A stretch of DNA of 64,000 nt from a virus (taxonomy: Duplodnaviria; Caudoviricetes): IMG/VR virus record IMGVR_UViG_3300037067_013660, positions 32,001 through 96,000 of that record; one strand, 5' to 3'. Position 1 is the stretch's first letter. The number at the start of each line of letters is the position of its first letter. The notes under the pieces are model-generated. The model made no database searches, was not told where the DNA came from, and saw only the letters and a list, made by a program, of their open reading frames with translations. Position numbers and translations under genes: made by a program. This document shows positions 47,652 to 58,724 of this stretch, one piece after another.

Positions 47652-48931
47652 GTTGTTTTTTCCCAGATTGACTCGTTAGCCTTGATGTCTTCCGCGATCC
47701 TACGTTTCGCCATCTTGACGTATTCAGGATTCAGTTCAATCGAGATACAACGCCGCCGTAAGCGCGCCGCCACCATCGCGGTGGTACCGGCCCCCCCAAA
47801 AGGATCCAACACGACGCAGGGTTTGGTTTTGTTAACATCGCAATCACAGGTGCGTTGCCAACCCACCGTACGGGTTATGTCGATGTGACCACCGCCAGGC
47901 GCCGATACTTTACCGTCTGTGCGGCCAGTCCTGGCCGCACAGGCTCGACGGTCTGCTTCGACGTCACGATTAGGGTTTTTGATTCGTTCTAACTGTCGTT
48001 CCATTGGAGCACCACACGCAGCACAACAACCCTTTTCCGACGTAGCCGACTTAATAATCGGTTCGACCAGTGTTTCGGGCCATACGGCAAAGTGGGCTTC
48101 TGCGAACGGGTGTGGGTTGATGGTCCAGACGGAACGCGGGTTACGAGTTTCTGTTATCTGCCTGATACCCACGACGTGGGTATCATATCCTTTGATCGGT
48201 TTGTTGTCTTTGCCTAAGAATTTACCTTGTGCCGTATGTGTCTCGTTCGCGTGACGACTTGGTTCTTTAATGGCGTCGATGTCGTAGAAGTACTTGGGTG
48301 ATTTAGCAAAGTGGAACAAGTATTCGTGTGCTTTGGTGCAGCGGTCTCGCGTAGACTCCGGCATGGTTTGTCCACAGTACACCGGATTGAAACTCACGGC
48401 TTTGGCCCAGATGATGTCTTGCCGCAAATACCAACCATCGGCTTGCAACGCAAATGCTACGCGCCAAGGAATACCTATCAGGTCTTTAGGCTTTAGATCT
48501 AGGTTGGCTCTGATGCGATCTTGTTGCCTGCTCTGGTATTGTTCTCCTCCGTGTTGTTCTTTCCACTCTTCGCCATTTATCTTATGGTTAGCATAACCAC
48601 CACCAAAATAACTATCACCTAGATTCAGATAGAATGTACCGTCGGGTCTAAGGATACGTTTGACCTCGCGAAAGATCTGAATCAAATGTCCAACATAGCT
48701 CCACAAATCTTTTTCGTTGCCTAGTGACGCTGTCTGTTGTTTGACCTTGATCTTGTCTAGCCCAGGCATCGGTCGAAACGCAACACGATCCCATTCGACT
48801 GGATCGATTCCATAATTCCTTAACCCAAAATAAGGAGGTGACGTCATGACGGCGTGGACAGACTCGTCGGGCAAATCTCTGAGTACGTCCAAAACGTGTC
48901 CTTGCAGGAACTTGACGTACTGGTTTGTCAT
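47648..48931 (-). CDS. N4/N6 DNA methyltransferase (beta class, SPPY, probably m4C)
   Basis: ATG 48931; TSPPY, NLGDSY, IIWAK, HE..F, LDPFGGAGTT, IELN; in-frame G7 at 47791-47797; C-terminal ESIWE tag. Confidence 0.9.
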   Translation of the reverse strand: MTNQYVKFLQGHVLDVLRDLPDESVHAVMTSPPYFGLRNYGIDPVEWDRVAFRPMPGLDKIKVKQQTASLGNEKDLWSYVGHLIQIFREVKRILRPDGTFYLNLGDSYFGGGYANHKINGEEWKEQHGGEQYQSRQQDRIRANLDLKPKDLIGIPWRVAFALQADGWYLRQDIIWAKAVSFNPVYCGQTMPESTRDRCTKAHEYLFHFAKSPKYFYDIDAIKEPSRHANETHTAQGKFLGKDNKPIKGYDTHVVGIRQITETRNPRSVWTINPHPFAEAHFAVWPETLVEPIIKSATSEKGCCAACGAPMERQLERIKNPNRDVEADRRACAARTGRTDGKVSAPGGGHIDITRTVGWQRTCDCDVNKTKPCVVLDPFGGAGTTAMVAARLRRRCISIELNPEYVKMAKRRIAEDIKANESIWEKTT

Positions 48932-49107
48932 CAGTTCGTGACCTTCGCCAGCATGAGGGCGATCTTTTCTTCCAGGTCGTCCAGCCGTTTGTGCAGCTCG
49001 CGATCTAGGTCGTCGAGTCGCTGTATCACGCCGGTCTCGTGGATCGCGATGTAGACGACGCGCTTGATTTGCTCTTCGGTTGTGCTCCACGTTGGTTTGT
49101 CGCTCAT
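48931..49107 (-). CDS. Small coiled-coil protein
   Basis: ATG 49107 (ATGA overlap); 58 aa; coupled on both sides. Confidence 0.55.
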   Translation of the reverse strand: MSDKPTWSTTEEQIKRVVYIAIHETGVIQRLDDLDRELHKRLDDLEEKIALMLAKVTN

Positions 49108-57349: not shown

Positions 57350-57897
57350 ATCAGTCGCTCCATGCGTGCGTACCGACTCAGTACCTGCAGGATGACGGCG
57401 GGGTTTTCGATGTGACCCTTGCCGGAATCGCCGACCGGCACGTACTGTTGATCCAAGTTGTTCCACAGCAGCATCATGGGGATCAGGATTTTGTTGTTGG
57501 CGGGATCGATTCTGATCTGGATCCCCACGACGATGCTGTAGCGCGCCACCACGCAGATGGGCGTCCATTCAAACGTGCCGGGGATCGTCTGCAAGATGTC
57601 GGCGCGCGTCAACACGACCGACAGGTACGTAGCCTTGGCCTCCTCGGGCATCTCGGTATATTGGGCGTCGTCGATGAGCGGGACGCCGAATACCCGCGCC
57701 ACGTTATTGGCCAAGGGCCGCAGGTACCGGACTTCAAAACGCCCGACCCAGTCGTGTTGTTCTGGGTGTTCGCATGGGTAGAACTGCGTCAGTTCTTTGA
57801 ACGGTCGGATGATCTGGATGCCCTCGGGCGGTGCATAGTCGTCGGGCAAATTGGTTTCCTGCACGTAACGATTTGGGGGTTGTTCCGTCATCGCCAT
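57346..57897 (-). CDS. Hypothetical protein
   Basis: 183 aa, coupled to its neighbours. Confidence 0.6.
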   Translation of the reverse strand: MAMTEQPPNRYVQETNLPDDYAPPEGIQIIRPFKELTQFYPCEHPEQHDWVGRFEVRYLRPLANNVARVFGVPLIDDAQYTEMPEEAKATYLSVVLTRADILQTIPGTFEWTPICVVARYSIVVGIQIRIDPANNKILIPMMLLWNNLDQQYVPVGDSGKGHIENPAVILQVLSRYARMERLI

Positions 57898-58724
57898 AAT
57901 GACTTCTGTGTCATCTCCTCGGTAGACCTAGCTCGTTGTTTTCGTCCGGGTTTCGGGTCGTGTCCCAACGCCACGGCTTTCCTGATGCGTTTTACCGCGT
58001 GTCGGTACCAGTGTTCGTCCAGCTCGATGCCTATGAATCTTCTACCCGTCAGCACGGCCGCCACGCCTGTAGATCCTGAACCCATGAATGGATCCAACAC
58101 GATGTCGCCTGGTTTCGTATGGAGCTGGATAAAGTGTGCTGCCAGTCGCCAGGGTTTCTCTGTTGGGTGTTGCGTGGCACTCGGGATAATCTTCTTGATG
58201 CCGTAGTCGCCGGGTCGGATGATGTTTTCGATCTTGTTGGTTTCGTCGTACCACTTGGCCTTGGCGCCTGGTTTTTGTCCTACCAATACGAACTCGTAGC
58301 TACGCCGGTAATGCCAACCCATACCCATGGAAGATTTATCCCACACGACCGCGTGTTTGAACCCGATGATTTTGTCCATCATGAGGCTCCAACGGGCGAA
58401 CTGTGGATCGGGTCCTCCTCCTCCTCCTGCGCAACAGCAACAGATTGCCCCCCCCTTCGGAAGAATCGGCGTGATGGCCTTGAGCATCTTTTTAGTTACG
58501 GCGTTGGCTTGGTCAAAATCATCATTTGCAATAGGCCGGGCTTCTTCGTTTTGACCCGTAGACCTCCCCAGGGCTTTCTCCCAGTTGGCGATTAGGTCAC
58601 CGTCGTTGTTGTTGTGTCCATAAGGCGGATCCGTAAAGACAAAATCGATACGTTTCAACGTCGGCATGACGTCAAGGCAGTCGGCAAGCCATAGTTTTGC
58701 TTTGTTGTCGATCTTCTCAAACAT
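57888..58724 (-). CDS. N4/N6 DNA methyltransferase (DPPY); intein-free paralog of 50630..52698
   Basis: ATG 58724; FTDPPY, VVWDK, HPTEKP, LDPFMGSGST; in-frame G8 at 58448-58455; KSLWR tag. Confidence 0.92.
   Translation of the reverse strand: MFEKIDNKAKLWLADCLDVMPTLKRIDFVFTDPPYGHNNNDGDLIANWEKALGRSTGQNEEARPIANDDFDQANAVTKKMLKAITPILPKGGAICCCCAGGGGGPDPQFARWSLMMDKIIGFKHAVVWDKSSMGMGWHYRRSYEFVLVGQKPGAKAKWYDETNKIENIIRPGDYGIKKIIPSATQHPTEKPWRLAAHFIQLHTKPGDIVLDPFMGSGSTGVAAVLTGRRFIGIELDEHWYRHAVKRIRKAVALGHDPKPGRKQRARSTEEMTQKSLWR
57995..58230. repeat. Dispersed ~235-bp repeat shared with 50761-50995 (paralogous MTase C-termini)
   Basis: Highly similar by eye, with differences mostly at synonymous positions. 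Confidence 0.85.

What the first reader, a model, noticed from the sequence alone, without database searches (positions are those of the whole stretch)
47791..58455. Simple-sequence-repeat switches concentrated in the modification genes: possible phase-variable phage epigenome
Seen: the only clear frameshifts I found in the window are in three modification genes, each exactly at a repeat: G7 (52401), (AC)6 (54885) and C9 (56563). Each is one repeat unit from being in frame. The other two G/C runs of 7 or more that I found by eye are also in MTases and are in frame (G7 at 47791, G8 at 58448). Very long structural ORFs are intact. Known: slipped-strand repeat switching of MTases produces bacterial phasevarions. 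Inference: a population could carry combinatorial ON/OFF modification patterns, hedging between restriction enzymes and modification-dependent (type IV) defences. Caveats: long-read homopolymer errors give the same picture, and Gly-rich MTase motifs favour G runs.
Basis: partly seen in the sequence, partly recalled or inferred. Interest (0 to 1): 0.85.

Follow-up and report, generated by a model that had tools for sequence, protein, structure and literature searches.

The report
Repeat-tract frameshifts in phage modification genes
Three of this large phage's eight DNA-modification genes are really broken, each by exactly one unit of a short slippery repeat, and the same broken versions recur in independent metagenomes, so this is a further and unusually multi-gene example of the slippage ON/OFF sites already known in phage and bacterial methylase genes, with actual switching still unproven.

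Summary
All five tracts are at the stated coordinates. G7 (52401), (AC)6 (54885) and C9 (56563), read on the coding minus strand, each sit at a frame break in an otherwise intact gene: an intein-bearing N6/N4 methylase, a Mom-like gene and a C5 methylase. One unit of change (G8, (AC)7, C8) restores homology and the family's spacing.

It is not an assembly error. ORFs specific to these exact tract lengths occur in other assemblies: three ENA MEGAHIT samples, JGI 3300028603, Logan SRR18595300 and a one-residue strain variant. The DNA I could fetch is 100% identical to the window.

Long G/C runs are enriched in the modification genes, which hold 4 of the contig's 7 in 5.7% of its length. They are depleted in other ORFs. 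C9 and (AC)6 replace non-repetitive sequence seen in homologues; three G runs lie in conserved Gly motifs.

No ON allele or length variant was found in 2 to 6 observations per site. Read mapping was not available. Phase variation is therefore plausible but not shown, and fixed slippage knock-outs are the main rival.

Precedent exists. I verified poly-G of 8, 9 and 10 in the bpm methylase of Bordetella phages BPP-1, BIP-1 and BMP-1. This scan has reported poly-G methylase switches in other phages.

The second frame change in the C5 gene is a conserved split into two overlapping ORFs.

The parts
46491..47651 (-). D12-class (Dam-like) adenine methylase; no long tract
   Evidence: Pfam PF02086, E = 1.2e-7
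47648..48934 (-). N6_N4 DNA methylase, intact. The true start is the ATG at 48934, after a separate 58-codon gene.
   Evidence: Pfam PF01555, E = 1.5e-37; gene boundary read
47791..47797 (-). G7 tract (coding strand), in frame; encodes the GG of motif I (DPFGGAGTT)
50630..52707 (-). N6_N4 methylase carrying an intein (LAGLIDADG type) after WDKG. It is split by the G7 tract into a 152-aa ORF and a 608-aa ORF.
   Evidence: Pfam PF01555 on both halves, PF14890 intein; read-through extends the match
52401..52407 (-). G7 tract at the frame break (OFF). G8 would give CCCGGGGGHKG, matching the family motif CCCC-GGGGG-HKG.
   Evidence: the same allele occurs in L009-L011 and in P0126
52695..54728 (-). 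N6_N4 methylase (677/664 aa) with an insert of about 0.9 kb; no long tract
   Evidence: Pfam PF01555, E = 1e-28; frame plot
54701..55241 (-). Mom-like DNA-modification gene, split by the (AC)6 tract
   Evidence: PHROG 1384, E = 1e-38, match extended by read-through; the downstream frame carries the conserved GGSW..RPR.DK.P..KK.W
54885..54896 (-). (AC)6 tract at the frame break (OFF). (AC)7 restores the frame and the 7-residue spacing between GW and GGSW seen in homologues.
   Evidence: the same allele occurs in L012, L013 and the Logan contig
56387..56915 (-). C5 cytosine methylase alpha ORF (motifs I-VIII), split by the C9 tract after motif IV
   Evidence: PF00145 rises from 60.9 to 103.4 bits on read-through; relative L006 is continuous here
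56563..56571 (-). C9 tract at the frame break (OFF). C8 gives V-C-P-P-H-A-L-L-ENV, the family spacing.
   Evidence: the same allele occurs in the Logan SRR18595300 contig
55228..56472 (-). C5 methylase beta ORF (WPTP-repeat target-recognition region, motifs IX and X). It overlaps the end of alpha in the +1 frame.
   Evidence: the same +1 arrangement is seen in L006 and L008
57888..58721 (-). N6_N4 methylase, intact (277 aa as called in the close strain)
   Evidence: Pfam PF01555, E = 5e-32; P0250 is 98% identical
58448..58455 (-). G8 tract, in frame (K-G-G-A of LPKGGA). It is kept at G8 in a strain about 3% divergent and is absent from a 74% orthologue.
60405..61949 (-). N6_N4 methylase (514 aa); no long tract
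   Evidence: Pfam PF01555, E = 9e-32

Best explanation
The three breaks are genuine, heritable one-unit slipped-strand changes at short repeats inside accessory DNA-modification genes of a large uncultured phage.

- G8 became G7 in an intein-bearing N6/N4 methylase.
- (AC)7 became (AC)6 in a Mom-like gene.
- C8 became C9 in the catalytic (alpha) ORF of a split C5 methylase.

Each change truncates the protein before essential motifs, so the genes are OFF. Two other methylases carry in-frame G7 and G8 tracts and are ON.

The only lesion in each gene is at a slippage-prone tract, so the state can be reversed by the same mechanism. The tracts therefore act as mutational ON/OFF sites, like the poly-G of Bordetella phage bpm and bacterial phase-variable mod genes.

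Shown here: the tracts, the breaks, the one-unit distance from the functional frame, the reproducibility of the alleles in independent assemblies, and the enrichment.

Inferred: that switching happens at a useful rate in the population, and that it is selected, for example by escape from modification-dependent restriction. In every sample on record the major allele is the same.
For: Position of the breaks. They lie exactly at the tracts, and read-through extends the family matches.

ON lengths reproduce the family's spacing and motifs:
- G8 gives CCCGGGGGHKG, against homologues with CCCCGGGGGHKG.
- C8 gives the V-x-P-x-x-x-L-L-ENV spacing of 118 homologues.
- (AC)7 gives the 7-residue gap between GW and GGSW.

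No other lesion. The 608-aa intein/methylase frame, the Mom C-terminal motifs, alpha motifs VI-VIII and the 414-aa beta ORF are all open and conserved.

Not an error:
- ORFs that can only arise from these exact tract lengths are present in other assemblies.
- The fetched contigs L009-L013, from ENA ERZ27247361, ERZ27250894 and ERZ27247346 and from JGI 3300028603, are 100% identical to the window.
- The Logan SRR18595300 contig carries both the C9 and the (AC)6 ORFs.
- Strain variant P0126 (V73I) keeps G7.
- About 50 other homopolymers of 6 or 7 bases lie inside intact ORFs or at ordinary gene ends, with no frame break.

Enrichment. The modification genes hold 4 of 7 G/C runs of 7 or more, and 5 of 11 long repeats, in 5.7% of the contig (P about 2-3e-4). 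A test that allows for amino-acid content gives P = 0.002 against the other ORFs. The G/C run spectrum for lengths 5 to 9 is 137, 11, 4, 2, 1, a dip followed by a heavy tail. The tract-bearing genes are less GC-rich than the genome.

Derived tracts. None of 118 C5 homologues has PPP at the site; the consensus is R-P-R-Y. None of 85 Mom homologues has THTH. The 74% orthologue of the G8 methylase has no G run.

Precedent, checked here. bpm of BPP-1, BIP-1 and BMP-1 has 8, 9 and 10 G in genes that are otherwise 99.7-100% identical.
Against: No length variation was seen. Every observation has the same allele: G7 about 6 times, (AC)6 4 times, C9 twice, G8 twice. No protein matching an ON allele turned up in the 90% clusters or in a homology search with the alpha fragment.

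G7 and (AC)6 are short compared with tracts whose fast switching has been shown. The G7 OFF allele has outlasted at least one substitution.

Three of the four G/C runs encode conserved Gly-Gly motifs, and on protein-preserving resampling alone the excess is only P = 0.03.

A relative (L015) has a methylase orthologue broken by an in-frame TAG, so these genes are also lost by ordinary mutation.

Confidence: 0.58

Rival explanations
1. Fixed loss of function. The three genes are dispensable, or counter-selected, accessory genes that were knocked out once by slippage at their most mutable site. They are now pseudogenes on the way to decay. The tracts are mutational accidents of horizontally acquired, Gly/Pro-rich genes and not evolved switches, and reversion plays no biological role.
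For: The OFF alleles are identical in all independent samples and in a strain variant. No ON allele was found. Three G runs sit in conserved Gly motifs. The methylase genes have weak codon adaptation and lower GC than the genome, which suggests recent acquisition. A relative has a methylase orthologue with a nonsense codon.
Against: Each gene has exactly one lesion and no secondary stops over 414-608 codons. C9 and (AC)6 were built by replacing conserved or non-repetitive residues. Long G/C runs are strongly purged elsewhere in the genome yet persist here. Variable poly-G in phage methylases is documented.
Confidence: 0.27
2. Leaky expression by recoding. Ribosomal slippage, or RNA-polymerase slippage on the runs, restores the frame in a fraction of products, so the genes are expressed at a low, tuned level and are not truly OFF. 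The likeliest case is a +1 shift on CCC-C within the C9/Pro-Pro-Pro stretch.
For: C9 needs a +1 shift, and a run of Pro CCC codons is a known +1-prone context (general knowledge of tRNA-Pro, m1G37 and EF-P; not tested here). The genes are otherwise intact.
Against: Relative L006 is simply in frame with no tract. G7 needs a -1 shift and has no X XXY YYZ heptamer. (AC)6 has no known recoding signal. The stop at the alpha/beta junction also shows no re-pairing site. Three different recoding mechanisms would be needed.
Confidence: 0.07
3. Sequencing or assembly artefact at homopolymers.
For: Only the general tendency of long-read data to miscount homopolymers.
Against: The same tract lengths occur in several independently assembled samples. 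Three of them carry k141_ contig names, which are typical of MEGAHIT. The fetched DNA has no mismatch. A dinucleotide unit is also affected, and about 50 other runs of 6 or 7 bases are unbroken.
Confidence: 0.03

Closest known systems
Variable poly-G tract in bpm (adenine DNA methyltransferase, bbp30) of Bordetella phages BPP-1, BIP-1 and BMP-1
   Same: It is a phage-encoded N6_N4-family methylase with a coding-strand poly-G that puts the gene in or out of frame. I verified G8 (annotated CDS), G9 and G10 in otherwise 99.7-100% identical genes.
   Different: That case is one gene and one tract in a temperate 42-kb phage, and the length differences between isolates are actually observed. Here there are five tracts in five of eight modification genes, including a Mom-like gene, a C5 methylase and a dinucleotide repeat, but no length difference has been observed.
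Bacterial phasevarions (phase-variable Type III mod and other methylase genes switched by simple repeats in Haemophilus, Neisseria, Helicobacter, Campylobacter)
   Same: Slipped-strand change in an intragenic repeat truncates a DNA methylase, and several such genes can coexist in one genome. A review and examples are held (PMC13076061, PMC4889913; listed).
   Different: Those are cellular genes that control regulons, and their switching rates and methylome changes have been measured. This is a lytic-type phage island where the methylation would mark the phage's own DNA, and nothing has been measured.
Hypermutable poly-G tracts of Campylobacter phages (Sorensen et al. 2021, Cell Rep 35:109214; citation seen in PMC12823448)
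   Same: Phage genomes that carry several poly-G tracts used to create phenotypic diversity.
   Different: By that paper's title and my recollection, those tracts affect receptor-binding and other proteins. I did not read the paper. Here the tracts sit in DNA-modification genes.
Two-polypeptide C5 methylases M.AquI and M.EcoHK31I (PMC3404938)
   Same: The C5 enzyme here is encoded as alpha (motifs I-VIII) and beta (variable region, IX, X), as in M.AquI. This explains the second frame change.
   Different: Here the split falls directly after motif VIII. Beta overlaps alpha in the +1 frame and carries five WPTP repeats. Activity of the pair has not been tested.

Membership tests
Repeat-mediated phase-variable (contingency) methylase locus | Simple repeat inside the ORF (or promoter) of a DNA-modification gene, long enough to slip | tested here: met
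   G7, G7, G8, C9 and (AC)6 lie inside five modification ORFs.
Repeat-mediated phase-variable (contingency) methylase locus | Frame state determined solely by tract length, with the gene otherwise intact | tested here: met
   A one-unit change restores homology and family spacing, and there are no other stops.
Repeat-mediated phase-variable (contingency) methylase locus | Different tract lengths among clonal or near-identical genomes, or within a population | tested here: not met
   All independent contigs and ORFs carry the same lengths.
Repeat-mediated phase-variable (contingency) methylase locus | Methylation pattern or phenotype changes with the ON/OFF state | not testable with these tools
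   Needs per-read methylation data or experiments.
Mom-like DNA modification protein (PHROG 1384 / Pfam PF25680) | Significant match to the family profile over the catalytic core, including the C-terminal GGSW..RPR..K..W block | tested here: met
   PHROG 1384, E = 1e-38. The Pfam Mom match is only 24.6 bits, below the 27.1 cut-off. The C-terminal block is present in the post-tract frame.
C5 cytosine DNA methylase (PF00145), split alpha/beta type | Motifs I, IV (PCQ), VI (ENV) and VIII in one ORF; target-recognition region, IX and X in a second ORF | tested here: met
   FTGAGG, GFPCQ, ENV and HKRNR lie in alpha after read-through. The IX-like and GNGQVP motifs lie in beta. The same split is seen in L006 and L008.
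Intein | Splicing domain with N-terminal Cys inserted in a conserved host-protein motif, plus a homing-endonuclease domain | tested here: met
   PF14890, E = 1e-13; a weak LAGLIDADG_3 match. The insertion follows WDKG and begins with Cys. Splicing itself was not tested.

The most novel reading that the evidence does not exclude
The phage runs a multi-locus 'phasevarion' of its own. Five independently slipping tracts in methylase, Mom-like and C5 genes would generate up to 32 combinations of genome modification within one burst population. That would hedge between classical restriction, which favours modification ON, and modification-dependent type IV defences, which favour OFF. The C9 tract would act as a three-state switch between complete alpha, truncated alpha, and motifs I-IV fused to beta.
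Probability: 0.25. Interest if true: 0.75.

Novelty: new member of a known kind. Interest (0 to 1): 0.45.

Why it matters
Phage-borne methylases decide which restriction systems a phage survives. If several of them toggle by slippage, a single phage lineage could carry a standing mixture of epigenomes and so escape both restriction enzymes and modification-dependent nucleases.

This contig is a good test case. It has eight modification genes, five with tracts. The alleles are reproducible, and at least five public datasets already contain the phage.

Even on the conservative reading it makes two points. Homopolymer-linked frameshifts in metagenomic phage genomes should not be dismissed or 'corrected' as errors. 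And accessory modification genes are preferentially lost through their repeats.

Tried and rejected
No read-level allele counts were possible, and read laying was not attempted because it takes only ids from that tool.
- Searches for related loci with the neighbouring helicase found nothing in viral, metagenome or genome collections.
- Exact flank patterns around C9 with a variable gap found nothing in viral or metagenome contigs. Own and near-identical records may be hidden there.
- GenBank phages gave no match, by DNA or by tblastn with the beta ORF. PDB gave none for beta.
- The MAG assembly behind L014 is not held. L014 ends 87 bp after the G8 methylase, so its other tracts could not be compared.
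- I tried to reproduce the exact C8 product by a four-letter code for an identity look-up. An earlier in-frame TGCC made this fail. The ON products for (AC)7 and G8 cannot be generated that way.
- My codon-usage frame-shift scans were noisy. The minus-strand candidates outside the island looked like ordinary gene boundaries on inspection. The absence of other frameshifts is therefore likely but not exhaustively shown.
- A suspected frameshift at the 5' end of the 47648 methylase was rejected. It is a separate 58-codon gene followed by an ATGA overlap.
- A programmed +1 frameshift at the alpha stop codon was rejected. The P-site codons CGA, CGT and GGT cannot re-pair in +1 in the three sequences.
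- The Liu et al. 2004 paper on BPP-1 is not held, so I checked the phage records directly.
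Full report
**Context.** The window is bases 32001-96000 of a 196,895-bp IMG/VR phage contig, estimated 56% complete. Nearly all genes lie on the minus strand. Between a DnaB-like helicase and a ribonucleotide reductase lies an island with eight DNA-modification genes:
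- a D12-class methylase (46491-47651);
- five N6_N4 methylases (47648-48934, 50630-52707, 52695-54728, 57888-58721, 60405-61949);
- a Mom-like gene (54701-55241);
- a C5 cytosine methylase (55228-56915).

**The observation.** On the coding strand they are G7 (47791), G7 (52401), (AC)6 (54885), C9 (56563) and G8 (58448). Three-frame translation shows that the reading frame changes exactly at three of them.

Reading through each break with a frame-moving code extends the family match across the tract:
- N6_N4_Mtase grows from profile positions 1-55 to 1-93.
- PF00145 rises from 60.9 to 103.4 bits.
- PHROG 1384 (Mom-like) grows from profile 18-147 to 18-175.

The functional length is one unit away in each case, and it reproduces what homologues have:
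- G8 gives CCCGGGGGHKG, against the family's CCCC-GGGGG-HKG.
- C8 gives V-C-P-P-H-A-L-L-ENV, the spacing of 118 homologues.
- (AC)7 gives the usual seven residues between GW and GGSW, followed by the conserved RPR.DK.P..KK.W.

Apart from the single break, each gene is open and conserved. That includes the 608-codon intein-plus-methylase frame and the 414-codon C5 beta ORF.

**Is it an artefact?** No.
- An identity look-up showed that the truncated ORFs, whose out-of-frame tails can only arise from exactly these tract lengths, are present in other assemblies.
- The 152-aa G7 fragment is in three ENA samples with MEGAHIT-style k141_ contig names (L009-L011).
- The (AC)6 fragment is in ENA ERZ27250894, JGI 3300028603 and a 7,259-bp Logan contig of SRR18595300. 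That contig also carries the C9 fragment and the same gene order.
- The five fetched contigs are 100% identical to the window, with no gaps.
- A strain variant of the 608-aa ORF with one substitution keeps the G7 frame.
- About 50 other homopolymers of 6 or 7 bases on the contig lie inside intact ORFs or at ordinary gene ends, with no frame break.

**Is it more than chance?**
- On the whole contig there are seven G/C runs of 7 or more and four dinucleotide repeats of 6 or more units.
- Four and one of these, respectively, fall in modification genes that make up 5.7% of the DNA (P = 3e-4 and 2e-4).
G7 at 52401 lies in a conserved poly-Gly, G8 in LPKGG and G7 at 47791 in motif I.
- I therefore resampled synonymous codons while keeping the proteins. 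The modification genes expect 1.15 runs of 7 or more and have 4 (P = 0.03). The other long ORFs expect about 9.5 and have 2. For runs of 6 or more, they expect 39 and have 12.
- So G/C runs are purged genome-wide but not here (P = 0.002 for the contrast).
- The run-length spectrum for G/C lengths 5 to 9 is 137, 11, 4, 2, 1, a dip at 6 and then a heavy tail.
- The tract-bearing genes are less GC-rich than the genome.
- C9 and (AC)6 are not imposed by the proteins. Homologues have R-P-R-Y, with 0 of 118 showing PPP, and a non-repetitive linker, with 0 of 85 showing THTH.
- The 74% orthologue of the G8 methylase has K-G-A-A and no G run anywhere on its 7-kb contig.

**Is it switching?** This is the weak point.
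- Every observation has the same allele: G7 about six times, (AC)6 four times, C9 twice.
- G8 is unchanged in a strain that is 96.6% identical across that region.
- No ON-allele protein appears in the 90% clusters, nor in a homology search with the alpha fragment, where the next hit after the query itself is 76% identical.
- These are consensus alleles from few samples.
- A relative (L015) has the orthologue of the 514-aa methylase interrupted by an in-frame TAG. So these genes are also lost by ordinary mutation.
- I conclude that the mechanism is slippage at repeat hot spots in otherwise intact genes, reversible in principle. That part is well supported. Population-level phase variation and bet-hedging remain inference.

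**The second frame change in the C5 gene.**
- After motif VIII (HKRNRLWVWCTKR, then a stop at 56387) the rest of the enzyme continues in the +1 frame. That part holds five WPTP repeats, an IX-like LNPTWVEALMGWPRGWT and the motif-X sequence GNGQVP. There is no repeat at the junction.
- This arrangement is conserved. Groundwater relative L006 and contig L008 have the same +1 arrangement. L006 has motifs IV to VIII in one frame and no C tract.
- Among the 119 homologues of the N-terminal ORF that I retrieved, one class (about 170-177 aa) stops a few residues after motif VIII, as here. A second class (about 238-245 aa) continues to a motif X-like GNGQVP.
- Many database 'proteins' that begin MSW... 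are the +1 frame read across the catalytic domain.
- No P-site re-pairing is possible at the alpha stop, so I read this as a two-ORF enzyme like M.AquI (PMC3404938).
- The C5 gene therefore has one true lesion, at C9. C8 is ON. C10 or C7 would fuse motifs I-IV to beta, an arrangement that occurs in contig L007.

**Comparison with what is known.**
- Following a lead from earlier notes of this scan, I checked the Bordetella phage records myself. The bpm adenine methylase has a coding-strand poly-G of 8 in BPP-1, where the CDS is annotated. It has 9 in BIP-1 and 10 in BMP-1, in otherwise 99.7-100% identical genes.
- Variable poly-G in a phage methylase is thus a known kind, as are bacterial phasevarions and the poly-G tracts of Campylobacter phages (citation seen).
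- The scan has also reported poly-G methylase switches with observed length variation in several other phage genomes. I did not re-test those.
- What is different here is the number and diversity of loci in one phage: methylases, a Mom-like gene, a C5 alpha subunit and a dinucleotide repeat.

**Verdict.** This is a new member of a known kind and is of moderate interest. The decisive test is read-level tract-length counting in the datasets named above.

Noticed in passing
window 55228-56915 (-); L006, L007, L008: The C5 methylase family here is encoded as two ORFs that overlap in the +1 frame, directly after motif VIII. In relative L008 the +1 frame is open across the entire catalytic domain, from an ATG 4 nt after the alpha start. 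As a result, many database proteins starting MSWLYS... are the alternative frame of motifs I-VIII joined to the real target-recognition/IX/X part. It is open whether that long overlap is translated (dual coding) or is only a gene-caller artefact.
   Followed up: partly
L007:175-1400: In this MEGAHIT contig, motifs I-IV, the WPTP repeats and motif IX are in one frame. Motifs VI-VIII and motif X are in another, overlapping frame, which is reminiscent of M.EcoHK31I, whose motif IX is on a separate small polypeptide. It may equally be a decayed copy.
   Followed up: partly
window 50630-52320 (-): An intein (Intein_splicing plus a weak LAGLIDADG match) is inserted after WDKG of an N6_N4 methylase and begins with Cys. 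It stays fully open although the host gene is frameshifted upstream.
   Followed up: partly
window 53100-54050 (-): The 677-aa methylase frame stays open across about 0.9 kb in which other frames score better for coding (ORFs 53116-53520 and 53552-54043). Neither ORF has a Pfam hit. Another note of this scan calls one of them an HNH endonuclease; I could not confirm that.
   Followed up: partly
L005:15076-15093, 15438-15453, 16785-16806 (contig 192076, 192438, 193785): The longest repeats of the contig are (GA)9 and (AG)8, directly after the start codons of two small genes (read as ERERER, in frame), and (AG)11, 7 nt upstream of a third start. Shorter (AG)5 copies sit before two other starts. 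They may be extended ribosome-binding sites or much better phase-variation candidates than (AC)6. None of the three genes has a Pfam hit.
   Followed up: partly
L004:6891-6898 and 7125-7131 (contig 166891, 167125): G8 and G7 (coding strand), plus a G6, a C6 and an A6 (coding strand), all lie in frame in one 701-aa ORF. The ORF has a hydrophobic N-terminal stretch and no Pfam or PHROG match.
   Followed up: partly
whole contig: G/C homopolymers are strongly avoided in ordinary genes. For runs of 6 or more, 12 are observed against 39 expected from codon usage. For runs of 7 or more, 2 are observed against about 9.5 expected.
   Followed up: yes
L015:2152-3687: In a syntenic relative (JGI 3300037483), the orthologue of the 514-aa methylase is interrupted by a single in-frame TAG. 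This is either a nonsense mutation or a hint of stop-codon reassignment.
   Followed up: no
window 58380-58470 and 52380-52440 (-): This N6_N4 methylase family has a conserved poly-Cys followed by poly-Gly block (for example CCCCCC-GGGG-PDPQFARW or CCCC-GGGGG-HKGIQF), which looks like a metal-binding site. In the 57888 methylase the poly-Gly is encoded as (GGA)4.
   Followed up: no
window 48931-49101 (-): A 58-codon gene with strong coding signal lies between the helicase and the methylase. Its stop overlaps the methylase start (TGATGA).
   Followed up: no
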